Source: an uncultured virus (IMG/VR IMGVR_UViG_2788500181_000007) (taxonomy: Duplodnaviria > Heunggongvirae > Uroviricota > Caudoviricetes). From it: 64,000 nucleotides of DNA. Location: the IMG/VR virus record IMGVR_UViG_2788500181_000007. The stretch is one strand, 5' to 3'. Each line of letters opens with the position of its first letter. Positions within the stretch are counted from its first letter, which is position 1. Both the position numbers and the translations under genes were made by a program. Positions 7,558 through 54,520 of the stretch are shown one piece after another. The notes under the pieces were generated by a model. That model saw nothing but the letters and a program-made list of their open reading frames with translations, was not told the DNA's origin and made no database searches.

Positions 7558-10500
7558 TTAGAATTGATATCCAAGGGCTCGTGCTTTCTTGTTAACCCGA
7601 ACCATTAACTTTAACTCTTTTCGCTGTATCTCGTCTACCCGTTGTATCTTCTCCCATTGATCCATGCTCGGGTGAGATTCGATCCTTTTCTTGAGTCGAC
7701 TAAATTTGTTCTTCTGCTTGGAGACTTCCTTAATCATCTCTTCCATGCTCATGATCTCGCGGTAGGTCTTGATAGCTTCGCCCTTGGCGACAGGACCCGC
7801 GGCTTCAGCGTTTTTCATCGCTACCTTTGCAGTCTCCAAGGAATCCCGTACGGAGTGGAAGTCTCTACGTACACTACTTCCATGGGTGGAACTACGTATG
7901 AATCGACTGACTACGGGGATGTCCTCAAACTTCATCGGTTCCGGATCTCCGATACCCATTGCGTTGTACCCCAGGCCGACCAACTGATCGATCATCGTAC
8001 CCGGACCACCTAAGTAACTCGTCCACAGATGTTGGAATTGCGATCCGGACATGTCAAACCTCCAGGCCGCATCTTCAGCCGTCATTGCGGGGTTGCCTCC
8101 GAATATACCCGAGAGGCTGCCTTTTTCGGCATCATCCCCGCCAAACATATGATTAAGCCCCCTTGAAAGATCTGTCCAATGTCTCGCCGTGTAGGGCGGG
8201 TCGTACTTGTGGGCAGGTTTATCCGCTTCCCATTGCGATTTTTCATACCGTATGGGGTTGCCCATGAAGTTCTTGTTCGCATAAAGCTGAGCAAGTGGCT
8301 TGGTTACGGTGGGGAAAATCATTGTGAGGGGGTCATCTGCCCCTAGAGGATTGACGGCATTGCTTATGGAGGTCGTCAATCGAGACAGGTCGCGCGACAT
8401 GGAATTGTCTACCCGATCGCCTCCTTGCAAGCCGTACTTGAAAATGTTGTCCCCAATGATCTGACCGATTGACCAGAATGCGTTGTACCCGAGAGGGAGA
8501 GGAAGTCGGAAATATCCGGTGTCTCGAGTTCCCGGAGATTTGTCATTCCACGGAAATCCGTCAGGCATGGGTATGATCAAGTAGGTATCGCGGACAAACG
8601 GACTGATCGTATCGTAATCATATTTGTCTTCGTCGTCGTCAGGATCGTCCATGAGACGGTTCATGATCGAAGACAATATGGAGGCTGCAACGATACCGCC
8701 TACGAGCTGCCATCTTTGCTCGGGTGTGCGCTCGGCAAACGCGCGGAACATTCTCTCGGTAGAGTTGACCGCAGCTCCGAAGAACACATACACCGAGCCC
8801 AAGGCGTTGGTCCAATTTCCTTTTTGGTTAAAGTCGACGGTTACGTTCCGTGCAATGTGAGTAGCTTCTTCGATCGTTCTGCCCTGCTCAAGCGCAGACC
8901 AGTATGCACTCATGCGCATGGAGTTTTCAAAAGCCGTGTTGAAGGTATCCACTACGCGGACGAAAGCCTTGCCAGAGGCAACTAGCCCCTTCTTAACATC
9001 ACCCCGTTTTGCCTTATTCAACTCCTTGTTGATGGCGCGCATTTCTTGGTGAATGGTTTTGTGCCTGAAGTATCCGACTTTCGCGCCGGATTGCTTGAAG
9101 AACGAGAACATGGCAACAGCCGCTTCTTTTCGCTTAGCTGAATTCCCGCTCTTAAAATCTGCAAGCAGGGCTTTCGCTGTGTCCATACTAAGGTCCAAGT
9201 CTTTACCCTTTAACGGGTCTTTTCCCTGCTCAACCAAGCTCTCATTCGTACGAATACCAGCCCATAGGCCGGAGATGTTACTCGCGCTTAGAGCACCTTT
9301 GGCCAGGTCCTTTTTGTCATCCGTGGTCAGGTGAATGGCTGCGGTTGCAAAGTCCCGTATAAAGTTGGGGATGATGAAAGCGGGGTTGGCCGAGGTGTAT
9401 ACGCGAGCAAGGAATTTCGTTCCGCTGTTAACCACGTTAGCAATCTCGGGAAGCGCTTGGTAGGCTTGGTTGCCCATGGCCCGTGCGATCCACTCACCCT
9501 CGGAGCCCTTGGAGTGTTCCTTCATCTTGATAAAGACCGGAACTCCTTCCTTGCGGAATACGAAAACATAAGGGTTGTCCTTGTAGAGTTGATTCAAGGA
9601 TTTCTGGGTAAACTTCAGATTGTTGATCGCTTCTCCGTTCTCATCAACCGCCTGAACATCTTCGAAATCGTAGGAGCGAACATCCTTGGTCGATTCAAAT
9701 TCCACTTCGAATACGTTATCGAAGTCTTCCTTTACCGCAGCGACGACATCAGGGTTTTTCATAATGTCTTGATATGTCTTGACGGATTGTGCATCTTCCT
9801 CGCTAGCAAATAGTTCGCCGTAAGTCATATCGGATCCTTCCCCCATCTTTTTGCCTGCGTAAGCGATGGCGCGCATGAACTGGTAAAGCTTGCCAAAGGA
9901 TTGACTGACTTCGTTCTTGTAGGAGCGAATTACCGTAGTTTGCCATTGCTCAAAGGCGGTAGCCAATACTTGCTCGGGGTTCGGAGCGTAGGACTTTTCC
10001 GTACGCCCGGTAAGGGCAGGATCCATGACCTGTTGCATCTTGGGCTGATTAAACCCTTTACCCGCGGTAGCACCTTTCTTTCCAAGCACGCTGAATGCCT
10101 CGTCCCGGTCATACAAAGCTTGCGTTTCTCCCTCGAAACCCTGCATGGGTACGTAGGAGTACTTGTTGTCAGGTAGTTTAACTATGGACTGATACTCTCC
10201 CGTCTTACCCGAACGCCAATCGTGGTAAGAAGCTGCGGCAAACATCCGTTCCTTCTCGGCGATCTCGGGATCCGTACGGATCATACCCGAACGATCAAGG
10301 TTCTCGATCGAGTCCTTGTTCATCTCGTAGATCAAATGGAGGGGTTTGTGAGAGCTTTTCAAAAAGTCCTGGAAGTGTTTGAGCCCCGGATCCGTCTCCA
10401 TGCGCTTCACGATTGCAATAGCATCAGGTGTGCGAATCCCGGAGAACGGAATCTCGGTCGCTTCGAGTTCGGCTATTGTTTTTTGAATATCCTCCTCCTT

Positions 10501-13500
10501 CACATTCCGCTCCTTGAGCTGGGCTCTTACCTCCTTGATCTTGGCCTGGTGCAGGCGTTGGTAATGTACGTTCATACTCGGTGCGCGACGGGCATTGAGG
10601 TATTTACCAAACTCTGCCTGAGTGACTCCGTATTCCCGCATGGCGGCCATGATCGGATCGTAGAATTTGGTATTGAATTGTTCGATCACTTCGTAATGAC
10701 CCTTTCCGTAGTAGGAGTGCCATTTTCTCCACACTTGAAGCTGATCGTAGAGAGGATTGCTCCGATCCAAGCCAATGGTTTCGAGAAATTTGTCATGCAA
10801 ACGTTTTACGGGACGTGCTTGGTCGACAATATTAGTACCCAATTTACCAATAGCTCGTTTGCCGAACAGTTTCTTGATAAATTCGTTTTGACCCTCGTAT
10901 CCAACCTTGCCTGCGAGAACGTCGTCTAAGAATGCAGCTCCGTGGCTTTTCTTGCCGTCAGCAATACGCTTGAGTGCGGCAGACAGATCATTGCTGTCCG
11001 GATGCGGGCCGTGACTGAGCAAGCCTTGGAAATACGATTCGATCTCGGGCATGTCGTATTTACCTACGGGATTGAATCCCTTAACTTCGTCTTCCGTAGG
11101 CTCCGTGTCTACCTTTGAGATCGTTTGTGCTCCACGAACAAGCTTCATCAACATTCTTTGGAATCGATTCACCAAAGAAAGTTGTTGCTCCAGACTCGAC
11201 CCCAGTAGGCCAGTTTCAGCTGGCGGGTCGATAAACAGGTCAAGCAAGCCGTTAAGCAACTCCTTGACTATAGGGTGGTTCTGCTTTGCATCCCTGACGC
11301 GCTGAGCCCATTCTTTGGCGGCTTTGGAAACATCCTTAGCCTCCACTTTAGCGGACAGTTCCGTTGTTGTGAAATCAGCATCCACGAGTAGGTTTTTCCA
11401 NAAGGACGGGCCCATNTCCGGAAAATTGGGGCGTATATCGAGGTATGGTTCNGCGGGGTTTTCCGTGTCGGAATTAACGACTCGATAGAGTAGATCCCAG
11501 AAAGAGGGGTTTGTCGGTCCGGTCGGTCCGGCTCGGTAAACCCCAACGTTTTGGGGTAGGATATGGGCAAGGGTGATCAAATCGCCCTTTTTGGCGCCCC
11601 CGGCCAAACCGTCTCGCATTTTTTCGAGTTTGGGAATCAGACTATAGGAAAGGAAATACGCTTCGGACCAGATGTCTTTCGCGCGNGCGACCGTGTCTTG
11701 AATCATTTTCGCCCGCTTCTCAGCAGGAACGCTAAGCTCAAGCTCCTCATTACGCAGGGCGGCGAGCTCGTCGACGGTCTGCTTTATATTGGAAGTCAAC
11801 TCGTCCATCCGCTTACGGTGGACACGCAAGGCGTCATCCGCACGCTTGACTGGGTTTTTAGTGTGGAAGTGTTCAATCACGCGTTCGATAAGCGGGCTGT
11901 CTCGAAGATTCTTCCCCCCGACTTCCAAGCTAAGTAGCTTATTGGCGGCTTTGGACAGCTTGGCTCGTTGGGTCTTTTCGCGGTTACCCACTTCATTGCG
12001 ATCGCCAAACGTTCCGTGATCGGGGTCGGTCTGATCGACATCCTGACCCATTTCCTCGTCATTAAAATTTTGAGTGACGACTGTACCGTCGTCTGATTTT
12101 CCGTCGTCTTCAAACTGTACTTCCTTGTAAAGCTCGACCCGTCGGGCATCGACCACAGCCTGTAGAATAGGGGCAAGATCGCTAGCCATACCTTCGTTGG
12201 ACAGCTTCTGGGCCTTCATCGGGTTGTCAACGAGTTTACCGTCTACATACACCTGATCGGCAGAGAGGTTGAAATCAATAGCAAACTCGTCTTTAGGGAT
12301 TGTGTTCTTCCCTCTCAACTTGGACTTGTCTAGACCGAGATGATCGTACATTGCTTCTATGAACTCGNGCCAGACNGCAGGAAGCAANTCACCATGGGCG
12401 GGTCCGCCCGGGCGCATATATCTAAAGTCTCCCTTGACCTCCGAAGAAGGAATGTTTCCAAACTTCATGCCGTTTAAGCCCCGCTCGGTAAGCATGCCTG
12501 GGTAGAGCAATACGAACTCGGCCAGGTCGGTAGCGGAGATCATGTAGTCATTACGCGTGGTGTCCGCATGTTTTGACTCGAGTAAAACTTCCCAGGCTTC
12601 CAANGCACGGCTTTGATTCTCGGCAGAGACAGGGTCGCCATTAACGTCCGTCCATCCTTCACCNTCCTTATTCGAATAGATCAGATCCGCCTCGCCAGAC
12701 AAGGGCTCGATGATAGTGACCTGATCCCCGGCTTTGGGTTGGAACTCAGGCTTGAGCTTGCGCGTACCGTCCTTAGTGGTACCCTTCTCATAAAATTCAG
12801 TAATCTGACTGGACTCGGTCTTTGCGAAATCAGTCTTCCCGAAATCGGTTTCCGCATTGGGATCGCGTCTCATATCATCCGTAATGAACTTGCGAATGTC
12901 TACCCCCTGGTCGACCTTTCTACCCTGCCCCGGTTTTTCGTAGGTGTAATCGTCACGGGAAGGAATGTTCACGCCCATAGATTGGGCGGCGGCTCGATTT
13001 AAGGAGATCTTCTCGGATAAAATAGCCCGGCTCTCATTCAGTCGATCATTAATCTCTTGAGATAGCTCGGCATCCCGATCAAAGGTCTGGGCCAATCCAT
13101 CCCTGAGTCGCGCTATCTCGCGAGCCAAGTCCTTGTCTTCATCCATTCGGTATTCTGCCGGACCCTTCTGGACCCTTCTGGCCTTGGTCATGGAATGAGG
13201 ACCACCGGAAATAGTTTCTTCCCACCAATCCAGGATGTCACGCTTTACACGATCCCGTTCCTTGCCCTGGGCCCATGCGGAGAGTGTTTGGTCCCAATTC
13301 ATCCCGACTTTCATTTGTCCCGTCTGAACTTCTTGCTGGGTAGATTCACCGCCCTCACTCTCGTCTCCAAAATCCGTCTTGTTCCGCCCTATATTGGATG
13401 CATTGAGCTTGGCCACGACCTGGCGGATTTCCTTGAATATCGGGCTGGCTTTGGCTTCGTTATATGAGGGGGCGGCACCAGATTCTACGGCACGGGCACT

Positions 13501-16062
13501 TGGGCGTTTACCCAGTTTATCGAGTGCTTCCTTTAGTTTTTCAAAGCGTGCTTCAAGAATCAGGGCTTCCATCGTATCCCTGCGAAACTGCGGATCAGCG
13601 TTTCCGTACCGTTCGCCCGGGCCGTAGGCGTGGTAAGCAAGCAGGGCATGAGCACGATCCAGGGCGGGTTGATCGTCTGATTTTCCACGCCCAAGATTTG
13701 CTATGCGTTCTTCCCACTCATGATGAGGCTTACCCTCGGCATTGGAGCCTAGAATCTTTAGGGCTTCCCAGTTGACACCCAGGACCTCGGCGGCATAGGC
13801 ATTTGCCTCGTGCTCTTTTTGGATCTCGCTCGGATCCATCTTGTCCTTGAGCACTGCCAGATGTCTGTGTAGATGTTTGTGGCCAACCTCATGGTAGAAC
13901 ACGAATTTAACGTATTCCATCGGAGACCCGAGGGCTTTTTCGAACTTCTTCAGGTCGATATTTTTAAAGACTTCCTTCTTTTGTCGGGAGCCCTGCATCT
14001 CGGGATATCCGCCGGTTAGGTACTTGAANCCCTCCATATAATCCTTACGGAGGGCGTTGATGTTTAATCTTATCTTATCCGTCTTTTTATTATACCCGCC
14101 GAGTGATTTATCGCTTTTGAGATTCTCATAGTTATCGGGGTGGAAATGTAGTAGGGGTGTCGATTGCTCGCTCTTAGGTAGCAACTCGGAAACAGGTTTA
14201 GGGTGATGCCCGTGCGGAACCCATGCACCTAATTTTTCCGGGCGGGCGCCGGCGGGCCCGTAATATCTCTTCAAAGACTCCGCGGTGATCGGGATGAGAC
14301 GTGGCTCGAAATTCGTTTTAAGTTGGACTGCTTCGTCCTCTTTCGGGGCGTGCTTCTCGAGCCACTCGTCATAACTCTCCGCATACTCGTCCCATACAAT
14401 CGCCCTGATTTCATCCGCGTACATGCCCTCCACTTCCTCGATAGAGTATTCGTCTTGCTCTGCTAGGAAGTTTTCCATCAGAACCTCTTCGTAGTTTTCC
14501 ATCTCGTAGTCGGGTACAGGGACTTTGTTCCCAGTCCCTTTGAGAAGGTTGGTCTGGGGGTCGTCGACAATATATTTAGTACCGTCGATGTCCACTACAG
14601 CGACCATGTGGAAGATATTGATATGAGGGTAGACGGGGTTGGTGGCTGACAGAAACCGGGCTTCCATTTTGAGGCCTAGCTTTTCTCCTCTCTCTACCAT
14701 CGCACCAGCCGTGGCTAGGCAGATATCTATTAACGACGAGACCCCTCCGGACAGCTTCCCTTCGTCAGTTTCTTCATCCGTAAAGAAACGACCAAGCGCA
14801 TGGGGTTTGGTAAGCTGTCGTACCTTCGGGTTTTCTTCGAGAGATAAGTTAGACCCGAGTTCTTGCAAAGTGCCCTCGGCCTTCGGCGGTTTCGTAGAGT
14901 CGCTTTCCTGCATGCGGACCCATTTATCTTCACCTATTGTCCAGGTAAAACCACCCTTGAAAAAACCATTTTGTAGGTATCTCTGTACTTGCCCGGCCGT
15001 ATATGGGCCATATTGCGTTTTGTCATGATATACATATATCTGACCCTCGGTAGGGCCTTCACCGGAGGGTGTCTCAGGTGCAGGTGGTGTCTCAGGTGCA
15101 GGTGGTGTCTCAGGTGCAGGTGGTGTCGACCCTTGACCATCGTCTTTTGACCCATAACCTTCGTCCCGTAAAGTTTGTATACGTTCGACGACCAAAGCAG
15201 CATACGAAGCTCCTTGGTCAGCGGTTATGGATCCTCTCCGTTCACGCCCNGNAACCTCGACCTTTTTACCCTTAGTACCCTTAGNNTTTTGNCTGGCTAN
15301 NCGTCCCATCGGTTTCGTACCGACGGATTTCACGTCAGCAGTATGGGTCGACGCTCGTGCGGCCAGCAAGGCGGCCTTTACCTCCTCGACGGTAGGTTTC
15401 TTCCCCTTCCCACTGTGGTAATATCTCTCACTCGCTTGTGCGGGATCGAAGTAGTCGTAAAGCTCCCAAAGGGCTTGTTGGGGATCGCTTATTTCCTTGT
15501 CCTTGGTAATGAACCGACCCGATTTCGGAAGGCCGGTCTGGTACATGTATACAAAGTCTTTGTTCGGGCCCTGTACGACGCCGGACATGTTCTTGCCTTC
15601 CGCCATCATCCCCAAAGTTACGCGTCCTCGATATTCTCCAAAGTGTTTTTTCTCGGCGTCAGTAAGTGGGACAAAGCCCCCTTTGGCACCCCGTTTTCTC
15701 CTACGGATTTGCCATTCTATACCCATCGGGTGTACAAAATCCGCCCATTGAAAGCGCGCATCCTCGGGATGCTGAGCATCGAGCATTTCCTCAACAAATG
15801 CGATTTGTTTCTTTAGACCGGCTACCGCTTCTACTTTGGGTTTGCCCTTGTAGGATTCTTTACCCTTAAACTGAGGGTCTTCCGCTTCGAGGGCCTCAAC
15901 ATCTGTAAGCTCGGATCGAAGCTCGTCAAGTCGCGCATTTAATTTGTCGGACTCTTTATCATAGCTGTCAAGAGCCTTATTTATTGCGCTTGCAGCTTCA
16001 GNAGGACTCATACTGCCNGGCTCGGCATTGATATACAGCNTCNGCNNTNNCNTNTANCCCAC
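7558..16062 (-). CDS. Giant polyvalent/internal virion protein, C-terminal part (GYF_2-like, papain/transglutaminase-like, HExxH peptidase, LPD38-like C-terminus)
   Basis: 2834-aa frame beginning in an N-rich stretch; motifs YGPY..W...W, C..H..D, HEVGH..EHEANAYA, YLIIP..YFRLPLPLGYNAF. Confidence 0.75.
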   Translation of the reverse strand: MXXXXXXXLYINAEXGSMSPXEAASAINKALDSYDKESDKLNARLDELRSELTDVEALEAEDPQFKGKESYKGKPKVEAVAGLKKQIAFVEEMLDAQHPEDARFQWADFVHPMGIEWQIRRRKRGAKGGFVPLTDAEKKHFGEYRGRVTLGMMAEGKNMSGVVQGPNKDFVYMYQTGLPKSGRFITKDKEISDPQQALWELYDYFDPAQASERYYHSGKGKKPTVEEVKAALLAARASTHTADVKSVGTKPMGXXAXQXXKGTKGKKVEVXGRERRGSITADQGASYAALVVERIQTLRDEGYGSKDDGQGSTPPAPETPPAPETPPAPETPSGEGPTEGQIYVYHDKTQYGPYTAGQVQRYLQNGFFKGGFTWTIGEDKWVRMQESDSTKPPKAEGTLQELGSNLSLEENPKVRQLTKPHALGRFFTDEETDEGKLSGGVSSLIDICLATAGAMVERGEKLGLKMEARFLSATNPVYPHINIFHMVAVVDIDGTKYIVDDPQTNLLKGTGNKVPVPDYEMENYEEVLMENFLAEQDEYSIEEVEGMYADEIRAIVWDEYAESYDEWLEKHAPKEDEAVQLKTNFEPRLIPITAESLKRYYGPAGARPEKLGAWVPHGHHPKPVSELLPKSEQSTPLLHFHPDNYENLKSDKSLGGYNKKTDKIRLNINALRKDYMEXFKYLTGGYPEMQGSRQKKEVFKNIDLKKFEKALGSPMEYVKFVFYHEVGHKHLHRHLAVLKDKMDPSEIQKEHEANAYAAEVLGVNWEALKILGSNAEGKPHHEWEERIANLGRGKSDDQPALDRAHALLAYHAYGPGERYGNADPQFRRDTMEALILEARFEKLKEALDKLGKRPSARAVESGAAPSYNEAKASPIFKEIRQVVAKLNASNIGRNKTDFGDESEGGESTQQEVQTGQMKVGMNWDQTLSAWAQGKERDRVKRDILDWWEETISGGPHSMTKARRVQKGPAEYRMDEDKDLAREIARLRDGLAQTFDRDAELSQEINDRLNESRAILSEKISLNRAAAQSMGVNIPSRDDYTYEKPGQGRKVDQGVDIRKFITDDMRRDPNAETDFGKTDFAKTESSQITEFYEKGTTKDGTRKLKPEFQPKAGDQVTIIEPLSGEADLIYSNKXGEGWTDVNGDPVSAENQSRXLEAWEVLLESKHADTTRNDYMISATDLAEFVLLYPGMLTERGLNGMKFGNIPSSEVKGDFRYMRPGGPAHGXLLPXVWXEFIEAMYDHLGLDKSKLRGKNTIPKDEFAIDFNLSADQVYVDGKLVDNPMKAQKLSNEGMASDLAPILQAVVDARRVELYKEVQFEDDGKSDDGTVVTQNFNDEEMGQDVDQTDPDHGTFGDRNEVGNREKTQRAKLSKAANKLLSLEVGGKNLRDSPLIERVIEHFHTKNPVKRADDALRVHRKRMDELTSNIKQTVDELAALRNEELELSVPAEKRAKMIQDTVXRAKDIWSEAYFLSYSLIPKLEKMRDGLAGGAKKGDLITLAHILPQNVGVYRAGPTGPTNPSFWDLLYRVVNSDTENPXEPYLDIRPNFPXMGPSXWKNLLVDADFTTTELSAKVEAKDVSKAAKEWAQRVRDAKQNHPIVKELLNGLLDLFIDPPAETGLLGSSLEQQLSLVNRFQRMLMKLVRGAQTISKVDTEPTEDEVKGFNPVGKYDMPEIESYFQGLLSHGPHPDSNDLSAALKRIADGKKSHGAAFLDDVLAGKVGYEGQNEFIKKLFGKRAIGKLGTNIVDQARPVKRLHDKFLETIGLDRSNPLYDQLQVWRKWHSYYGKGHYEVIEQFNTKFYDPIMAAMREYGVTQAEFGKYLNARRAPSMNVHYQRLHQAKIKEVRAQLKERNVKEEDIQKTIAELEATEIPFSGIRTPDAIAIVKRMETDPGLKHFQDFLKSSHKPLHLIYEMNKDSIENLDRSGMIRTDPEIAEKERMFAAASYHDWRSGKTGEYQSIVKLPDNKYSYVPMQGFEGETQALYDRDEAFSVLGKKGATAGKGFNQPKMQQVMDPALTGRTEKSYAPNPEQVLATAFEQWQTTVIRSYKNEVSQSFGKLYQFMRAIAYAGKKMGEGSDMTYGELFASEEDAQSVKTYQDIMKNPDVVAAVKEDFDNVFEVEFESTKDVRSYDFEDVQAVDENGEAINNLKFTQKSLNQLYKDNPYVFVFRKEGVPVFIKMKEHSKGSEGEWIARAMGNQAYQALPEIANVVNSGTKFLARVYTSANPAFIIPNFIRDFATAAIHLTTDDKKDLAKGALSASNISGLWAGIRTNESLVEQGKDPLKGKDLDLSMDTAKALLADFKSGNSAKRKEAAVAMFSFFKQSGAKVGYFRHKTIHQEMRAINKELNKAKRGDVKKGLVASGKAFVRVVDTFNTAFENSMRMSAYWSALEQGRTIEEATHIARNVTVDFNQKGNWTNALGSVYVFFGAAVNSTERMFRAFAERTPEQRWQLVGGIVAASILSSIMNRLMDDPDDDEDKYDYDTISPFVRDTYLIIPMPDGFPWNDKSPGTRDTGYFRLPLPLGYNAFWSIGQIIGDNIFKYGLQGGDRVDNSMSRDLSRLTTSISNAVNPLGADDPLTMIFPTVTKPLAQLYANKNFMGNPIRYEKSQWEADKPAHKYDPPYTARHWTDLSRGLNHMFGGDDAEKGSLSGIFGGNPAMTAEDAAWRFDMSGSQFQHLWTSYLGGPGTMIDQLVGLGYNAMGIGDPEPMKFEDIPVVSRFIRSSTHGSSVRRDFHSVRDSLETAKVAMKNAEAAGPVAKGEAIKTYREIMSMEEMIKEVSKQKNKFSRLKKRIESHPSMDQWEKIQRVDEIQRKELKLMVRVNKKARALGYQF
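15065..15127. repeat. 18-bp tandem repeat (x3) encoding a PPAPET linker
   Basis: ggtgtctcaggtgcaggt repeated three times. Confidence 0.85.
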
Positions 16063-37999: not shown

Positions 38000-38913
38000 T
38001 TAGCCCTCGGGAAGTTCTCCATGGAACCGTTGAATCTGTTAGGTGAACGATGCAGGGTTTGACCTTTGCGAACGGCGTTCCATACACGGATTAACCCGGC
38101 AAGTACGGTTGGCCATTTCCATTTGTGATCTTTGGGGCCGTGTGCTTGCTTGATTAACGCATTCCGTAATTGCAGGATTGGGTTATCGTGAGCAAGGTTG
38201 TACCCGTGTACTACATTGTCCATGAAGGCGTCGGCCATGATTGGGTCGATTTCCCTGAATATGTATAACGCTGTGGCAGTGTTGGCATTGGAGCTTACCG
38301 GATTGATTGAGCTGTTGTATGAGCAGGCGGTGTCAACGGCGTCTGGCAGTTCGGGGTACTTTGAGACAAGCAGGTCTTTCCATGTTTCGTTCGGGTAGCG
38401 TTCGTCTGAACTTCCCCAAGTCATGGTTCTTGTCTTGTACATATCAACAAGCTTGACTGTTCTTGCTAGTGCTGAGGTATTTATATAACCGGCGATTCCA
38501 AGGACATCGCTCAAAGAACGCTTTTTACCTTGGTCTATTGTGTCGAACACCTCGGGATCGAGTCCGTAGATGACATGTGTTCGTATGGTTTTTTCAGCTT
38601 TTACTACTGCTGTTAACCGGTGTTGGCCGTCTAGTAGGATTTCTTTACCGTCTTTTATCCCAATCTTTATGGTTTCGCCGTTGTTTACCCACCTGTTTTC
38701 CCGGATCGTGGTGGCAAGCTTGAGCGTATGGCGCTCGTTTATCTTGCGGTTATTCGGGTTGGTTGCAAGTAACTGCTTTGCTCGGGCAGGCGTGATAGTT
38801 TCCACGCGTGATGGAGTTTCTCCTGTTGGTTCACCAAGCATTTGAGCCATGGTTTGGTTTGCAGGTAATGCGTATGCTGGTATTCCGTTGTTGTGTGTAT
38901 TTGTAGTATTCAC
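37996..38913 (-). CDS. ParB-like (DGQHR) domain protein
   Basis: ITPARAKQLL..N.NNR...LLDGQHRL...FDTIDQGKKRS. Confidence 0.78.
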   Translation of the reverse strand: MNTTNTHNNGIPAYALPANQTMAQMLGEPTGETPSRVETITPARAKQLLATNPNNRKINERHTLKLATTIRENRWVNNGETIKIGIKDGKEILLDGQHRLTAVVKAEKTIRTHVIYGLDPEVFDTIDQGKKRSLSDVLGIAGYINTSALARTVKLVDMYKTRTMTWGSSDERYPNETWKDLLVSKYPELPDAVDTACSYNSSINPVSSNANTATALYIFREIDPIMADAFMDNVVHGYNLAHDNPILQLRNALIKQAHGPKDHKWKWPTVLAGLIRVWNAVRKGQTLHRSPNRFNGSMENFPRAK

Positions 38914-39161
38914 TTACTTTCCTTTCTGTTTATTATGGCTGTCGCGAAACAGCCGTGTTGGTTATTAACCATGAGGATTCCGCCTTCCGCCATTTCCTTG
39001 GCGAACAGGTGTTGGAACTCGTGGTTTAGTACGATTTCAGGATCGATCCCGATTTCGTTCATTCGATTCATTATAGCTACAGGCAAGCTTGCGTATGTTT
39101 CCGTGACGCATTGCTCGTCGAATAGCTCATAAATAGTTTGTGGATCTCCGAAATGGCTCAT
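38910..39161 (-). CDS. Hypothetical protein (MSHFGDPQ...)
   Basis: Start/stop overlaps at both ends. Confidence 0.55.
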   Translation of the reverse strand: MSHFGDPQTIYELFDEQCVTETYASLPVAIMNRMNEIGIDPEIVLNHEFQHLFAKEMAEGGILMVNNQHGCFATAIINRKESK

Positions 39162-39457
39162 GTTACCCAGTGGAATTTGGGGATTTCTCTTTCGTATCCG
39201 TCGCTGTCGTACATACCTGACCAGTTTTCGATGTGTTCTGCGTGCAACACATCGTTGAATGTGGCCATTAGTAGGTGTTGTTCGTTTGTCCATTTCTTGT
39301 TACTTGCGGGTAAGGTGTCGCGATACTTTTCTACGGCACGCTTAAATGCCCAGTAGTTGTCGCGTAGCTCAAGTTGATCTTCGTTGATTGCGTCGCAGAG
39401 TACTTGTCGTGCCCAGAACTTTAAGTTTGAGCTTAGTCGTGTTTCCATTGTGTCCAT
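39158..39457 (-). CDS. Hypothetical protein
   Basis: 99-aa ORF preceded by GAAAGGA. Confidence 0.6.
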   Translation of the reverse strand: MDTMETRLSSNLKFWARQVLCDAINEDQLELRDNYWAFKRAVEKYRDTLPASNKKWTNEQHLLMATFNDVLHAEHIENWSGMYDSDGYEREIPKFHWVT

Positions 39458-39485
39458 GTCTAGTTAATCCTTTCTGTTAGTTGGT

Positions 39486-39522
39486 AAAAAAAAACCCGCC
39501 AGCCCCAAACAGGGCTGACGAG
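39486..39522 (-). terminator. Rho-independent terminator downstream of the ncRNA locus
   Basis: CTCGTCAGCCC...GGGCTGGCGGG plus T9. Confidence 0.8.
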
Positions 39523-39531
39523 TAGGTGGCG

Positions 39532-39681
39532 TTACGGGTGAAACTCTAACGCTAAGTACCATTCGTACCTAGCAACCATATTTTCCATGAACCTAAGTCC
39601 ATCTTCNCCTAGGAACGGGGTTTTATAATGCATTTCAAGCGCGAGCTTGAAGTTTTCGTATGTTTCTTTGTTTATTAGCAT
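39532..39681 (-). CDS. Small hypothetical protein (49 aa, MLINKETY...)
   Basis: ATG 4 nt after the CCA of the tRNA-like RNA; ends before the terminator. Confidence 0.45.
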   Translation of the reverse strand: MLINKETYENFKLALEMHYKTPFLXEDGLRFMENMVARYEWYLALEFHP

Positions 39682-39685
39682 AAAG

Positions 39686-39800
39686 TGGCTTCGCGCGCAG
39701 GTATCGAACCTGCCCCAACCCAAAGCGTCGCAACGCTCGCAGATCTGTAACTCTGCGGGGTGGTATCGCCCGTGTCTTACAGGACACTCGAATCGCGAAG
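39686..39800 (-). ncRNA. tRNA-like RNA (115 nt): acceptor-like stem, T-arm and CCA with a non-canonical core
   Basis: CTTCGCG/CGCGAAG-CCA; GCAGG-TTCGATA-CCTGC; three internal hairpins; complementary loops CTGTAA/TTACAG. Confidence 0.7.
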
Positions 39801-39809
39801 ATAGTAAAG

Positions 39810-40347
39810 TGGTGCGGGGCAGGAGCTTGGTAGCCTGCCATCCGATGTTAGTAACTAATTTTATGCGACTTGCGGGAGGATTGAGCAGTCGCCTGCCGTA
39901 CCTCCAACGGAATACTGAACAATTAATTGTTTAGTTCTTAGTGTACCTAAGACCGTACCTCTCGACCCCGCTACGGGATGCTTCCGCCTTTCCTCTGCCA
40001 CATGGCTGTCGTACTCGGTGCTTAACATGCTTTGCGTTAGCTCGGCGTGAGAGTGCAATGTTAGTTATTAACTCGAAACCCGATCTGATGTACCCATGTT
40101 CCATTGGTAGCGTAACCTCGAGAACCCTTCCGCGAAGAAGGCAGATCAACTTGTGCTCGCATGCCATCAGCGTGGCATGTTTACGAGCGTCCGCGTACGA
40201 TCGACTAGAACGACCGTACAAAGTGAAGCAACTTTACTTCGTTGGTTTGGCTAACCAAATCCCAAGCGAGGAATTTCTGAGATCCAAAGGATCGAAGAAA
40301 AGGACGAAGGAGCTTCAAAGAAGAAACTGAGGAAATACGAGCCCCAC
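39810..40347 (-). ncRNA. Large structured ncRNA (~538 nt) ending in ACCA, family unknown; 5' end tentative
   Basis: 7-bp closing stem GTGGGGC/GCCCCGC plus A-CCA; more than ten hand-identified helices; no credible ORF. Confidence 0.6.
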
Positions 40348-40510
40348 CATAGTTTTCGGGCAACCTGACGGTTTTGGTTTTTTTGGATTTCTTCTCCGCA
40401 TCGCTAGGAATGTTCGCATGATAGTACCCTAGCCGATCGTACAGGAGACAAATAACGTTGACTGCGGGGCAAGCGGTTGTCGGAAGACGGTATCTTGAGT
40501 AAAGTTGGGG

Positions 40511-40756
40511 ATGCCAGCGAAGAAAAAGCGAAACTACAAAAAAGAGTACAAGAGCTACCACGCTAAGCCTAAGCAGAAGAAAAGGAGGGCTCAACGCAAC
40601 TCCGCTAGGTCGAAGATGGTAAAGGCGGGGAAAGTCCGCAAAGGCGACAAAAAAGACGTCGACCACAAGGATCGGAACACCGCTAACAACAAAAGATCGA
40701 ACCTGAGGGTCACATCCCGGGCCAAGAACCGAGGATACGCTCGGAAGAAACGGTAG
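40511..40756 (+). CDS. Small basic HNH endonuclease-like protein
   Basis: DVDHKD.N..NN..SNLRV....NR. Confidence 0.8.
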   Translation: MPAKKKRNYKKEYKSYHAKPKQKKRRAQRNSARSKMVKAGKVRKGDKKDVDHKDRNTANNKRSNLRVTSRAKNRGYARKKR

Positions 40757-41059
40757 TTTTACGTTTCTGTAACGTTTTAAAAAGGAAAAACGTAAAGGCT
40801 TACCCTGCTGTCACGCAGTAACTTAGGGCATAGCTTTACGTTTTTACGTTTTTTCCGGCGAAAAGATATTTTAAATCTTCTATTCCTTTATACACCTTCT
40901 CCTCTTACCCTTCTTTCTTTTATTATTATACTTATAATACTTTTATTAAGATAAAAACGTAAAAACGTAAAGGTAAGTTGTAAGTTCCTGCCTGCAAACA
41001 ACTTGACTATTTACGTTTCTCTCTACAAAAACGTAAAATCTTTACGTTTTAAACGTTAA
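40757..41059. repeat. Putative replication origin: TTTACGTTT/AAACGTAAA iterons around an AT-rich core
   Basis: Nine exact copies plus degenerate ones in both orientations; AT-rich centre ~40860-40950; directly upstream of the replication operon. Confidence 0.7.
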
Positions 41060-41090
41060 GCTTTCCGGCGTTGCTATACAAAATATATCA

Positions 41091-41120
41091 TTGACATCTT
41101 TTTGTTTTACATGGTATAAC
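41091..41120 (+). promoter_or_regulatory. Sigma-70 promoter TTGACA-N18-TATAAC with extended TG
   Basis: Near-consensus hexamers; predicted +1 falls on the ATG at 41127. Confidence 0.8.
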
Positions 41121-41126
41121 AACGGT

Positions 41127-41279
41127 ATGTCCTTAGAGAATCAAGTAAACATACGGGTAGACGACAATCTTCTAGCCGAAATACGCAAGTTAGCTAAAGC
41201 CCGCTACTCTACCCCCTCGCAGGTTGTGAGAGAGGCTATAGCCTACTACCTCAGACGGAAAAAGGGTGAGGATGAGTGA
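41127..41279 (+). CDS. Ribbon-helix-helix (CopG-like) regulator
   Basis: QVNIRVDDNLLAEIRKLAK....SQVVREAIAYYL. Confidence 0.8.
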   Translation: MSLENQVNIRVDDNLLAEIRKLAKARYSTPSQVVREAIAYYLRRKKGEDE

Positions 41280-41508
41280 CGTGGTAGTAGATCACGGGGA
41301 ATCCCCCGCCCTAGTAGCGCTTATGCTGGCCGACATCTTGATACCGGAGAAGAAACTCCACTCGGTTTTTAGCAGGACTTCACTTTGGAGGCTCCGACGA
41401 AGCGGCATGCCCGTATATAAAGTCCCATCCGTGGGCGTATGCGTAAAGCCCTCTGACCTCAAGGAGCACTTGGAATGCGTGGCCCACCTGACAGAGTCCT
41501 CGGAATAG
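41272..41508 (+). CDS. Xis/AlpA-like HTH protein
   Basis: SRTSLWRLRRSGMPVYKV...VKPSDLKEHL. Confidence 0.55.
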   Translation: MSDVVVDHGESPALVALMLADILIPEKKLHSVFSRTSLWRLRRSGMPVYKVPSVGVCVKPSDLKEHLECVAHLTESSE

Positions 41509-53344: not shown

Positions 53345-54520
53345 ATGAATACACACACCACTCAGTCCAGAATCAGTACAAAGACCAAGCAAGGAGCTAC
53401 AATTTCCAAACGCAGTAAGGCAGGAGCTTGGCGCTATGTCACTCGCGCCGGCGGAAAAGACTATTACTTCCCCTTAGGTTACTCCGAAAACGAGGCCAAA
53501 GAGTTGGCTGACAAGGTTCGGGCGACGATACTGTTGGAAGGTATCGATACCGCTCGGGAGAAGTTCTGCCAGAAGGCTCTGCTCCGGGATAAGCCACCCT
53601 CTCCGACCATTGACCAAGTACTGACGACCCTCGATCAAATACAGCATGTCATGGGCTGGGCAACAGTTACCAAAAACGGGTACAAAAATTCATTGGTCTC
53701 CATTGCAAGGACGGCATTAAATAAGTCGACGGAAGAGGTGAAGGCAATGGAGTGCAGTATTTTCAACCCCAGCCTAATTAGCAAATATAAGGACGCAAAA
53801 CTGTTTGGCGTGGACAACGAGGCCCGCAAGAAGTCTGTTATGCGCACAATTAATCGTAACATCCGTGAACTGAAAGCGGTTTTCGGTTCTAATACCGAGC
53901 AGTACTTTAGTAAGTACGACATGTCCTTCGTGGGGGCCCTAAAGACCGAGAAGTTCTATCGAGGTCTGCGGAAACTGTACCGCTTACCAAAAGGACAAAT
54001 GGTGTCCGACACTTTCGCATTAGCAGATAGTTTAAGCGGGGATCAAGGAACGGCATTAAATTTAGCATTATATTTTGGTCTTAGGCGGGGTGAGATTTAC
54101 CACGCTCGACGGGATTGGTTTGATTTGGAAGGAGATCTTTGCCGTATAGATATAGGGGCAGAGCGCGATTTCCGTCCCAAGGGTGGTCATGAAGGGATAA
54201 CTATGGGGTCTAAGGCTGCCGCCGTAGCCATTCTTAATAAAGCGTCGGGCGACGATTATTTATTGGGGCGCCGTGTCAAGGGGGGTCGTTCCTTATTTCA
54301 GGAGCTCGTGAAGGTATTGCGGGGCATTGGGTACACCATGGAAAACGGCAGGGAGAAACCTTTACATGAGATGCGCAAGCTGTTCGGTAGCTACGTAGCT
54401 ACCTCGCAGTCTATATACACGGCACAGAAGTACTTAAGACACGCTGATTCGAGTACGACCAATGAGAGCTATGCCGACATTATCGTCGACAAAAAGGTTT
54501 TAAAGCTGTGGGCGGCTTAG
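53345..54520 (+). CDS. int: Tyrosine recombinase / phage integrase
   Basis: Catalytic residues: GLRRGEI, PK, LHEMRK, LRH, Y(ADI). Confidence 0.9.
   Translation: MNTHTTQSRISTKTKQGATISKRSKAGAWRYVTRAGGKDYYFPLGYSENEAKELADKVRATILLEGIDTAREKFCQKALLRDKPPSPTIDQVLTTLDQIQHVMGWATVTKNGYKNSLVSIARTALNKSTEEVKAMECSIFNPSLISKYKDAKLFGVDNEARKKSVMRTINRNIRELKAVFGSNTEQYFSKYDMSFVGALKTEKFYRGLRKLYRLPKGQMVSDTFALADSLSGDQGTALNLALYFGLRRGEIYHARRDWFDLEGDLCRIDIGAERDFRPKGGHEGITMGSKAAAVAILNKASGDDYLLGRRVKGGRSLFQELVKVLRGIGYTMENGREKPLHEMRKLFGSYVATSQSIYTAQKYLRHADSSTTNESYADIIVDKKVLKLWAA

What the first reader, a model, noticed from the sequence alone, without database searches (positions are those of the whole stretch)
39686..39800. 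115-nt tRNA mimic whose D/anticodon half is replaced by a kissing-loop module
Seen: a canonical T-arm (GCAGG-TTCGATA-CCTGC) followed by 7 nt, G and CCA, with 5' CTTCGCG pairing to CGCGAAG. The core holds hairpins GTGTC-CTGTAA-GACAC, CGCAGA-GTTACAGA-TCTGCG and AGCGT-TGCG-ACGCT. Loops CTGTAA and TTACAG are perfectly complementary over 6 bp, and there is no 7-nt anticodon loop. Known: bacterial YrlA Y RNAs and viral tRNA-like structures mimic the tRNA top half; phi29 pRNA oligomerises through loop-loop pairing. Inference: a non-decoding tRNA mimic that folds or multimerises through the kiss.
Basis: partly seen in the sequence, partly recalled or inferred. Interest (0 to 1): 0.85.

Follow-up and report, generated by a model that had tools for sequence, protein, structure and literature searches.

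The report
Phage tRNA-shaped RNA beside abundant RNA
An uncultured marine phage carries a 115-base RNA element with the top half of a tRNA but no anticodon arm, placed directly behind a roughly 500-base non-coding RNA found in several ocean RNA data sets, and it most likely marks where host tRNA-processing enzymes cut.

Summary
On the minus strand, 39800->39686 has a canonical T arm, a 7-bp all-Watson-Crick acceptor stem, an encoded CCA, three perfect hairpins and a 6-bp complementarity between two loops. It is not a decoding tRNA. ARAGORN and Rfam find nothing at normal thresholds, and relaxed ARAGORN calls are artefacts, since interior shuffles are called too. No homologue was found, only two identical metagenome copies. 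Syntenic relatives carry other cargo at this site, so covariation of the kiss cannot be tested; its chance probability is about 0.003. New context: RNA contigs from three independent marine metatranscriptome studies cover only 39813-40313, which abuts the element. This RNA matches no Rfam family and shows no coding signal. The element has U(-1), A(-2) and a 3' GCCA, which bacterial RNase P prefers. Upstream lies a promoter-like motif conserved in relatives; 160 nt downstream lies a strong terminator. Best reading (0.42): a tRNA-shaped processing module, like mascRNA behind MALAT1, that sets the 3' end of the upstream RNA and is released as a compact by-product. The strand of the 0.5-kb RNA, expression of the element and the cleavage itself are not shown.

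The parts
39686..39800 (-). 115-nt tRNA-shaped element. It has an acceptor stem, a D-like arm carrying hairpin H1, an outer helix carrying H2 and H3 as a three-way junction in place of anticodon and variable arms, a T arm and CCA.
   Evidence: Sequence; fold -47.5 kcal/mol, z -2.40; helix probabilities in isolation 0.56-1.0; identical copies in L081 and L082
39794..39800 (-). Acceptor 5' strand CUUCGCG. The leader bases just upstream are U(-1) at 39801 and A(-2) at 39802.
   Evidence: RNase P preferences for U(-1) and A(-2) from passages of PMC4919922
39686..39695 (-). Acceptor 3' strand CGCGAAG followed by an encoded CCA; read as GCCA in the other register.
39697..39713 (-). T arm: 5-bp stem GCAGG/CCUGC with loop UUCGAUA.
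   Evidence: pair probability 1.0 in isolation
39772..39787 (-). Hairpin H1 (GUGUC/GACAC) inside the D-like arm. Its loop CUGUAA lies at 39782-39777. A GGG run 3' of it sits where the D-loop GG of a tRNA would be.
   Evidence: probability 0.84-0.98 in all folding contexts
39738..39757 (-). Hairpin H2 (CGCAGA/UCUGCG) with the 8-nt loop GUUACAGA. Bases 39750-39745 are complementary to the H1 loop.
   Evidence: probability 0.94-0.97
39724..39737 (-). Hairpin H3 (AGCGU/ACGCU, loop UGCG).
   Evidence: probability 0.86-0.93
39813..40313 (-). Roughly 0.5-kb RNA seen as whole contigs in three metatranscriptome studies. The strand is inferred, not shown. Its last hairpin (39839-39818) is followed by an ACCA that ends at 39810.
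   Evidence: read laying contigs at 39813-40310, 39847-40313 and 39849-40301; no Rfam match; no Pfam or PHROG hit for the ORFs here
39801..39812 (-). 12-nt spacer between the last base covered by an RNA contig and the element's first base. It holds the CCA at 39812-39810 and the A/U-rich leader.
39494..39523 (-). Intrinsic-terminator-like hairpin (13 pairs, 8 G-C) followed by a T run, about 160 nt downstream of the element on the same strand.
40416..40438 (-). Promoter-like motif (GGCTAG..TACTATCATGC) upstream of the unit. It is conserved in related phage contigs in the same orientation.

Best explanation
The element is a genuine, non-decoding, tRNA-shaped RNA module. It is carried as lineage-specific cargo by an uncultured marine phage and lies in one leftward transcription unit with a ~0.5-kb non-coding RNA immediately upstream. 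Inferred mechanism: the unit is transcribed from the conserved promoter-like motif (40438-40416) towards the terminator (39523-39494). Host RNase P recognises the coaxial acceptor/T-arm helix, the T loop, the U(-1)/A(-2) leader and the 3' GCCA, and cuts at about 39801/39800. That cut creates the 3' end of the upstream RNA, which is then trimmed back to its terminal hairpin, and releases the 5' end of the tRNA-shaped RNA. The element's 3' end forms at the encoded CCA in an A/U-rich tract. The core is three perfect hairpins, possibly locked by a 6-bp loop-loop kiss. It replaces the anticodon arm, so the by-product is compact and stable but cannot decode. This is what the tRNA-like mascRNA does behind MALAT1. 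Shown here: the sequence anatomy, the failure of all tRNA and RNA-family tests, the adjacency to an RNA present in metatranscriptomes, and the absence of the module from syntenic relatives. Inferred: co-transcription, the strand of the 0.5-kb RNA, RNase P cleavage, stability of the by-product, and the kiss.
For: Anatomy and fold. RNA contigs of three studies cover only 39813-40313 out of the 2,501 bases laid. Their far ends agree within 12 nt (40301-40313) with no loose end, while a DNA contig reads through. One contig stops at 39813, 13 nt before the element. No U-tract follows the last hairpin of that RNA, so its 3' end is not an intrinsic terminator. The element has U(-1), A(-2) and a 3' GCCA, which passages of PMC4919922 describe as contacts preferred by bacterial RNase P. 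A strong same-strand terminator lies downstream and a promoter-like motif conserved in relatives lies upstream. No tRNA, tmRNA or other Rfam family matches. None of the 50 ORFs scanned against Pfam encodes an RNA-processing enzyme, so host enzymes would have to act. The six X16 transitions that fall in minus-strand MFE helices all keep their pair, but four are A>G opposite U and so trivial; on the plus strand 3 of 5 keep it.
Against: No RNA contig covers the element, so its expression is not shown. The strand of the 0.5-kb RNA is unproven, and the plus strand folds at least as well (z -3.79 against -2.56). The near ends of the RNA contigs differ (39813, 39847, 39849), and one has an 18-letter loose end, so that boundary is only a weak hint. 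An RNase P handle needs only acceptor plus T arm, so the elaborate core is unexplained by processing alone. With flanks included, acceptor-stem probability falls from 0.95 to 0.01-0.32, because the upstream hairpin shares the T-arm stem sequence. There are no homologues, hence no covariation for any helix.
Confidence: 0.42

Rival explanations
1. Free-standing functional tRNA mimic. The RNA acts in its own right, for example as a decoy or sponge for host tRNA-binding factors, or it dimerises or docks onto the neighbouring large RNA through the loop-loop pairing. Processing would be only how it is made.
For: The core is far more elaborate than a processing handle needs: 37 predicted pairs and three all-Watson-Crick hairpins that stay robust in every folding context. 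Chance loop complementarity is 0.003. The CCA is encoded. Large phage RNAs that sit near tRNAs and assemble through kissing loops exist, namely GOLLD and ROOL (passages of the bioRxiv preprint 10.1101/2024.12.08.627333; PMC5737381).
Against: There are no homologues, so nothing shows that selection acts on the loops. Duplex energy between the element and the 0.5-kb RNA is no better than for shuffles (-79.1 against a mean of -80.4). No antisense target in the window exceeds chance length. No Ro/TROVE, ligase or synthetase gene was found among the 50 ORFs scanned. I did not see aminoacylation identity elements such as G3.U70 (read; identity rules recalled).
Confidence: 0.25
2. The structure is not an RNA of this strand at all. 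The 0.5-kb RNA is plus-strand and starts beside or inside the element, and the tRNA-like fold is a coincidence or a DNA-level feature.
For: The plus strand of 39810-40320 folds with the better z-score. The element is uncovered in all three RNA runs laid, though contigs cannot prove absence. With flanks, the acceptor stem is not the preferred fold.
Against: By my arithmetic the combined T arm, 7-bp acceptor and CCA are expected about 1e-4 times per window. No sigma-70-like promoter was scanned on the plus strand near 39780-39813. Plus-strand RNA contigs would be expected to run on towards the weak terminator-like site at 40356-40368, but they stop at 40301-40313 in all three studies. Neighbouring genes to the left are all minus-strand.
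Confidence: 0.15
3. A decayed or aberrant tRNA gene: a pseudo-tRNA, or a tRNA with a short intron such as the tRNA-Gly(ACC) model that relaxed ARAGORN proposes.
For: ARAGORN with -i -ps80 draws a cloverleaf with U33, anticodon ACC and a 32-nt insert at the canonical 37/38 position.
Against: The same settings of 200 sequences with a shuffled interior. That fold scores -14.6 to -25.8 kcal/mol, against -45.2 for the hairpin fold. Default ARAGORN with introns does not call it. I found no bulge-helix-bulge motif by eye. No splicing enzyme was found among the scanned ORFs. Perfect all-Watson-Crick hairpins are not what decay produces.
Confidence: 0.07
4. An attP-type fragment: the 3' part of a host tRNA gene carried by a temperate phage as its integration site, with the 5' pairing arising by chance.
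For: The phage encodes a tyrosine-integrase-like protein at 53345-54520. That phage integration sites often copy tRNA 3' ends is recalled knowledge.
Against: The 25-base T-arm-plus-acceptor string has no exact match in one genome each of 185,579 species. The integrase gene is 13.5 kb away. A complete, perfectly paired 5' strand and a structured core are not expected in an attP core.
Confidence: 0.04

Closest known systems
mascRNA / menRNA behind MALAT1 and NEAT1_2 (mammals)
   Same: A tRNA-shaped module sits directly 3' of an abundant non-coding RNA. In that system RNase P cleavage at the module makes the long RNA's 3' end and releases a small non-decoding tRNA-like RNA (passages of PMC4919922).
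   Different: That system is eukaryotic and nuclear. The long RNA's end is protected by a triple helix, and CCA is added after the cut. Here the host is bacterial, CCA is encoded, the core has three hairpins instead of a reduced cloverleaf, cleavage is untested, and cmscan finds no sequence or model match.
C4 antisense RNA of phages P1/P7 and CI RNA of P4 (RNase P-processed phage RNAs)
   Same: Small phage RNAs cut out of a longer transcript by host RNase P by virtue of a tRNA-like acceptor end. PMC4919922 lists the Hartmann 1995 paper in its references; the details are recalled.
   Different: Those RNAs act through loops that pair with target sites in the same operon. Here the two loops pair with each other, no target above chance was found, and there is no Rfam match.
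GOLLD and ROOL large phage RNAs near tRNA genes
   Same: A large structured phage or prophage RNA of unknown function lies next to tRNA(-like) genes. Kissing loops are used for tertiary and quaternary structure.
   Different: The neighbouring 0.5-kb RNA matches neither family, and the partner here is a non-decoding tRNA mimic, not a tRNA. No multimer evidence exists.
YrlA bacterial Y RNAs
   Same: They are about the same size, with a module that mimics the tRNA acceptor/T/D region without decoding (recalled).
   Different: In YrlA the 5' and 3' ends form the Ro-binding stem and the acceptor-like helix is closed by a loop (recalled). Here the ends form the acceptor and carry CCA. No Rfam match was found, and no TROVE/Ro gene among the ORFs scanned.
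tmRNA tRNA-like domain and plant-virus tRNA-like structures
   Same: An acceptor plus T arm with CCA is joined to a non-tRNA body.
   Different: ARAGORN finds no tmRNA at default settings. Relaxed calls occur in 21-31 of 100 shuffles, the tag is atypical, and there is no G3.U70. The element is not the 3' end of a viral RNA genome.

Membership tests
tRNA (ARAGORN; Rfam tRNA and tRNA-Sec models) | Scores as a cloverleaf with a 7-nt anticodon loop | tested here: not met
   ARAGORN reports 0 genes in the window and in the 300-nt segment at default settings. cmscan reports nothing over the element at gathering score or at E<=10.
tRNA (ARAGORN; Rfam tRNA and tRNA-Sec models) | Canonical T arm, 7-bp acceptor stem, 3' CCA | tested here: met
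   Read from the sequence and from the fold.
Intron-containing tRNA | Called with an intron at default stringency, and the mature cloverleaf is energetically competitive | tested here: not met
   Not called with -i at default settings. The -ps80 call is matched by 195 of 200 interior shuffles. Its cloverleaf scores -14.6/-25.8 against -45.2 kcal/mol.
tmRNA | ARAGORN or Rfam tmRNA model; G3.U70; a tag reading frame ending in a typical degradation tag | tested here: not met
   None at default settings. Relaxed calls occur in 21 and 31 of 100 shuffles. The tag is reported as 'not identified'. There is no Rfam hit.
YrlA / bacterial Y RNA | Rfam model match and a neighbouring Ro (TROVE) gene | tested here: not met
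   No Rfam hit. No TROVE domain in the 50 ORFs scanned. ORFs without any Pfam hit remain open.
C4 / CI antisense RNA | Rfam model match, and loops complementary to target sites in the same phage | tested here: not met
   No Rfam hit. The longest loop-complementary matches in the window are 8-10 nt, about what chance gives in 128 kb.
mascRNA-type 3'-end processing module (a functional class, not a sequence family) | Lies directly 3' of an abundant non-coding RNA on the same strand | tested here: inconclusive
   RNA contigs end at 39813-39849, 13-49 nt from the element. Contigs do not show the strand of the RNA, and folding does not decide it.
mascRNA-type 3'-end processing module (a functional class, not a sequence family) | Cleaved by RNase P at its 5' end | not testable with these tools
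   Only the recognition features can be read: U(-1), A(-2), GCCA, and the 12-13-layer acceptor/T stack.
GOLLD / ROOL (for the neighbouring 0.5-kb RNA) | Rfam covariance-model match | tested here: not met
   No match at gathering score. At E<=10, only two irrelevant weak hits over 39780-40420.

The most novel reading that the evidence does not exclude
The 0.5-kb RNA and the tRNA-shaped RNA form a two-part phage ribonucleic machine. The large RNA is matured by the tRNA mimic. The mimic's complementary loops then drive head-to-tail dimerisation, or docking to the large RNA, giving an RNA-only assembly of the kind recently seen for ROOL and GOLLD. This would be a bacterial-virus counterpart of MALAT1/mascRNA with a structural role for the small product.
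Probability: 0.1. Interest if true: 0.85.

Novelty: new variant of a known kind. Interest (0 to 1): 0.6.

Why it matters
If the reading is right, a bacteriophage uses a tRNA look-alike as a built-in cutting mark to mature a highly expressed non-coding RNA. That strategy is so far best documented for mammalian long non-coding RNAs. The neighbouring 0.5-kb RNA turned up in RNA libraries of several independent ocean studies and belongs to no catalogued family. The pair therefore gives a concrete, clonable entry point to an unknown class of phage RNA in the sea. The tRNA mimic's core, with a hairpin in the D loop and a three-way junction in place of the anticodon arm, matches no Rfam family in the scans made here. 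It would be a compact test case for intramolecular against intermolecular kissing.

Tried and rejected
1. Homologue hunt, all negative.
- Exact 29-mer and 20-mer, and a gapped three-motif pattern, in viral contigs: 0 matches each.
- Exact 25-mer in genome contigs: 0 matches.
- blastn-short of the element against 109 loci: only the two identical copies in L081 and L082.
- Model R1 over the window plus 29 loci, then 80 loci, then 12 loci, then 2 loci with filters off: nothing beyond self-matches and hits of 19 bits or less.
- R1 and DNA searches over 5 whole viral records: 0 of 5 for R1. For DNA, 1 of 5 matched, the significant match (E 0.0016) covering the promoter motif, plus one 15-nt chance-level piece.
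- DNA search of two 401-genome samples, which listed the same genomes: 5 short hits of 22-33 nt at chance level, and none of those loci holds an Rfam family.
- Phage-collection blastn of 39000-40600: no match.

2. Relatives reached through the ParB-like neighbour gene.
- Single-protein scans found nothing.
- Alignment scans gave 80 + 29 + 3 + 9 loci.
- The syntenic ones (L086, L087, L089, L113, L114) lack both RNAs.

3. RNA cover.
- No RNA contig covers 39686-39812 in X4, X6 or X16.
- Contigs of size-selected libraries cannot show that a 115-nt structured RNA is absent, so this counts neither way.
- Only 4 of the 24 listed runs were laid (cap).

4. Tests that settled nothing or were negative.
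- Strand of the 0.5-kb RNA from folding or from 12 variant positions: not decisive.
- tmRNA, permuted tmRNA and intron-tRNA readings from relaxed ARAGORN: artefacts by shuffle controls.
- An RNase P RNA-like purine-rich motif at about 39980-40000: no Rfam RNase P hit, and the look-alike genome loci hold no Rfam family.
- The element as a paralogue of the 3' end of the large RNA: local alignment is no better than shuffles, with 206 of 300 scoring at least as high.
- Earlier-findings look-ups by place and by sequence: empty.
- Literature searches for a described marine phage RNA of this kind found nothing specific. That is four full-text searches, so it is not proof of absence.

Full report
WHAT IS THERE. 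The element lies on the minus strand, 39800->39686. From 5' to 3' it reads as follows:
- a 7-nt strand CUUCGCG, then two unpaired bases;
- a 3-bp stem that carries a perfect 5-bp hairpin (H1, loop CUGUAA) and a GGG run;
- two unpaired bases;
- a 6-bp helix with one bulge, which carries two further perfect hairpins (H2, 6 bp, loop GUUACAGA; H3, 5 bp, loop UGCG);
- one G;
- a T arm GCAGG-UUCGAUA-CCUGC;
- one G;
- CGCGAAG, which pairs with the 5' strand, and then CCA.

RNAfold returns exactly this fold at -47.5 kcal/mol, z = -2.40, with 4 of 200 shuffles as stable. The loops of H1 and H2 are complementary over six Watson-Crick pairs and no further.

The acceptor can be read in two registers. One is a perfect 7-bp stem with a G between it and the T stem and no free discriminator. 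The other is the canonical numbering, with an A7.G66 mismatch, U8, G73 paired to C(-1), and then CCA.

IS IT CHANCE? Random loops of the same sizes and composition reach a complementarity of 6 or more nt in 0.0032 of 200,000 trials. By my arithmetic, a strict T arm plus 7-bp Watson-Crick acceptor plus CCA is expected about 1e-4 times per window. The tRNA-like half is therefore not chance. The kiss is suggestive, but it rests on one sequence.

IS IT A tRNA OR A KNOWN RNA? It is neither.
- ARAGORN finds no tRNA or tmRNA in the window.
- Rfam 15 (4,227 models) has no match at gathering score in the whole window.
- At E<=10, Rfam has none over the element. The five weak hits in 39300-40200 all lie at 39457-39668, on the terminator region.
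- Run locally, ARAGORN stays silent at default stringency with introns allowed.
- At 80% stringency it draws an intron-containing tRNA-Gly(ACC). The same setting of 200 copies whose interior I shuffled. Its cloverleaf evaluates at -14.6 kcal/mol (-25.8 with H2 added), against -45.2 for the hairpin fold. That call is an artefact of the good acceptor and T arm.
- tmRNA calls appear only at 80% stringency, with an unidentified tag, and also appear in 21 and 31 of 100 shuffled controls.

THE GENOME. The window is a phage. It encodes rIIA- and rIIB-like proteins, a family-A DNA polymerase, a helicase, a terminase, an SU10-type portal and adaptor, a capsid protein, sigma-region-4 proteins and an integrase-like protein. 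It is far from catalogued phages: every tblastn match of the ParB-like protein (89 records) and of the polymerase (887 records) is below 60% identity, and the best listed are 23-31%. None of the 50 ORFs scanned against Pfam is an RNA-processing, ligase, Ro or synthetase protein. The window's 72 Ns are polymorphic sites; for example, 39607 is T in one metagenome copy and C in another.

COMPARATIVE SEARCH. Two metagenome contigs (L081, L082) carry the element unchanged. Nothing else does. All exact and gapped pattern scans, the covariance model R1 over 123 loci and 5 whole viral records, and DNA searches of genome samples were negative.

The nearest relatives reached have a ParB-like protein 41-42% identical. 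They keep the local gene order: a small HNH-type protein gene, a promoter-like motif, a variable stretch, and then the ParB-like operon. In that variable stretch they carry other things: repeated hairpin units, a microsatellite and small ORFs. The tRNA-like element and its neighbour are thus lineage-specific cargo at a variable site.

THE NEIGHBOUR. Twenty of the 24 listed public runs hold part of 39450-40500, and 14 of them are RNA libraries. I laid four runs on 38800-41300. The three RNA runs come from three studies.
- Each gives one contig confined to 39813-40310 (498 nt), 39847-40313 (485 nt) or 39849-40301 (454 nt, 13 differences).
- Almost nothing lies on the remaining 2 kb. In X6, one 181-nt contig over the ParB-like gene has word depth 22.4, against 922.9 for the RNA contig. 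The tool warns that depth is a poor measure.
- The DNA run reads through both boundaries.
- The far ends agree within 12 nt without loose ends. The near ends are 39813, 39847 (with an 18-letter loose end) and 39849.

DNA carry-over cannot explain cover limited to these 500 bases. The stretch matches no Rfam family. Its ORFs hit no Pfam or PHROG family. The 12 listed variant positions fall 5/4/3 over the three codon phases (my count), so it looks non-coding.

Its strand is not shown. Folding favours neither strand clearly (z -2.56 minus, -3.79 plus). The variant positions lean slightly to minus. The flanking signals favour minus: a 13-pair terminator with a T run at 39523-39494, and the conserved promoter-like motif at 40438-40416.

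HOW IT MOST LIKELY WORKS. On the minus strand the 0.5-kb RNA ends in a hairpin followed by ACCA, with no U tract, so the end is not an intrinsic terminator. Nine bases later the tRNA-like element begins. The two leader bases are A(-2) and U(-1), and the element ends in GCCA. Passages of a review of RNase P (PMC4919922) state three things: bacterial RNase P prefers U(-1); it contacts A(-2); and it pairs its L15 loop with a 3' RCCA. The same review states that MALAT1 and MEN-beta are matured at tRNA-like structures that yield mascRNA and menRNA.

I therefore read the element as a processing module. Host RNase P cuts at its 5' side, which defines the 3' end of the large RNA and frees a compact tRNA-shaped by-product with an encoded CCA. 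This is inference, and I put it at 0.42.

Several things count against it:
- The element's own expression is unseen.
- The near boundary is only a weak hint.
- The core is more elaborate than a handle requires.
- In longer folding contexts the acceptor stem competes with a pairing between the T-arm 5' strand and the 3' strand of the upstream hairpin, which share the stem GGCAGG/CCUGC. Acceptor probability is 0.95 alone and 0.01-0.32 with flanks, while H1-H3 stay at 0.84 or above.

RIVALS.
- A free-standing mimic that acts or multimerises through the kiss: 0.25.
- A plus-strand RNA with a coincidental fold: 0.15.
- A decayed or intron-bearing tRNA: 0.07.
- An attP-type tRNA fragment: 0.04. The 25-mer is absent from 185,579 species genomes.

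The element's loops have no target in the window beyond 8-10-nt chance matches. Its duplex energy with the large RNA equals that of shuffles.

COMPARISON AND NOVELTY. Functionally the closest case is mascRNA behind MALAT1. Among phages the closest are the RNase P-processed C4 and CI RNAs. By context the closest are the GOLLD and ROOL RNAs, which lie near tRNA genes and use kissing loops. The element is a member of none of these families by any model tested. I rate it a new variant of a known kind, the tRNA mimics, with interest 0.6. The anatomy and the link to an RNA seen in several ocean studies are real and new. There is no covariation, no proof of strand and no evidence of cleavage. It is a lead I did not test.

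Noticed in passing
window 39813-40313: A roughly 0.5-kb RNA is present as whole contigs in three independent marine metatranscriptome studies and absent from the flanks. It has no Rfam, Pfam or PHROG match. Over its 3' (minus-strand) 132 nt, the variant contig of run X16 shows no differences; over the other 320 nt it shows 12-13.
   Followed up: partly
window 39818-39839 and 39697-39713: The last hairpin of the 0.5-kb RNA and the T arm of the element share the stem GGCAGG/CCUGC. This gives an 8-nt complementarity between the upstream 3' strand and the T-arm 5' strand, which competes with the tRNA-like fold in longer folding contexts.
   Followed up: partly
window 40131-40137: A second copy of the acceptor 5' heptamer CUUCGCG sits in a hairpin loop of the 0.5-kb RNA. 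The heptamer occurs 10 times on both strands of the window, so a copy this close has a chance of about 3%.
   Followed up: partly
window 40416-40438; L086 ~2160-2180; L114 4797-4815; L125 1755-1800: A promoter-like motif GGCTAG(1-2 nt)TACTATCATGC is conserved in related phage contigs. It always points towards the ParB-like operon and occurs twice in tandem in L125.
   Followed up: partly
window 40760-41090; L113 ~1090-1390: Clusters of direct and inverted ACGTAAA(A) repeats lie in an AT-rich stretch between the divergent gene blocks and are conserved in a 69-kb relative. They look like iterons or operator sites.
   Followed up: no
L086 2300-2600; L114 5050-5350; window 39632-39653: Relatives carry 4-5 copies of a hairpin unit (GAACGT..ACGTTC followed by CACTGCA) in the slot where this phage has the two RNAs. 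The window has one similar hairpin just downstream of the element. They resemble hairpin-type early promoters of N4-like phages (recalled, not tested).
   Followed up: no
L114 4940-5030 (also L089): A microsatellite of GTGCTTAG/GTGCTTGG octamers lies in the variable stretch of a related phage.
   Followed up: no
window 40505-40756 (+): A small, very basic 83-aa protein has an HNH_3 match (E 1e-6) and is conserved at 69-73% over about 50 residues in relatives, whether or not the RNAs are present. It is therefore not tied to them.
   Followed up: partly
window 7558-16062 (-): A 2,834-aa ORF lies next to the SU10-type portal gene and is interrupted by many N positions. It was not scanned. It may be a giant virion protein.
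   Followed up: no
window, 72 N positions (for example 39607, 42076, 42199): The Ns are polymorphic sites. The two identical-lineage metagenome contigs carry different plain bases there. None falls inside the element.
   Followed up: yes
run X6 contig, at window 39847: One RNA contig continues for 18 letters unlike the window after 39847. These letters look like a diverged version of the terminal hairpin region, so a variant 3' end exists in nature.
   Followed up: no
L016 9834-9954 and 11527-11640: An unrelated viral contig has two 114-121-nt stretches with a good T arm and a 7-bp acceptor pairing that ARAGORN does not call, lying next to ordinary tRNA genes. Their folds are not better than shuffles (z -0.45 and -1.80).
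   Followed up: partly
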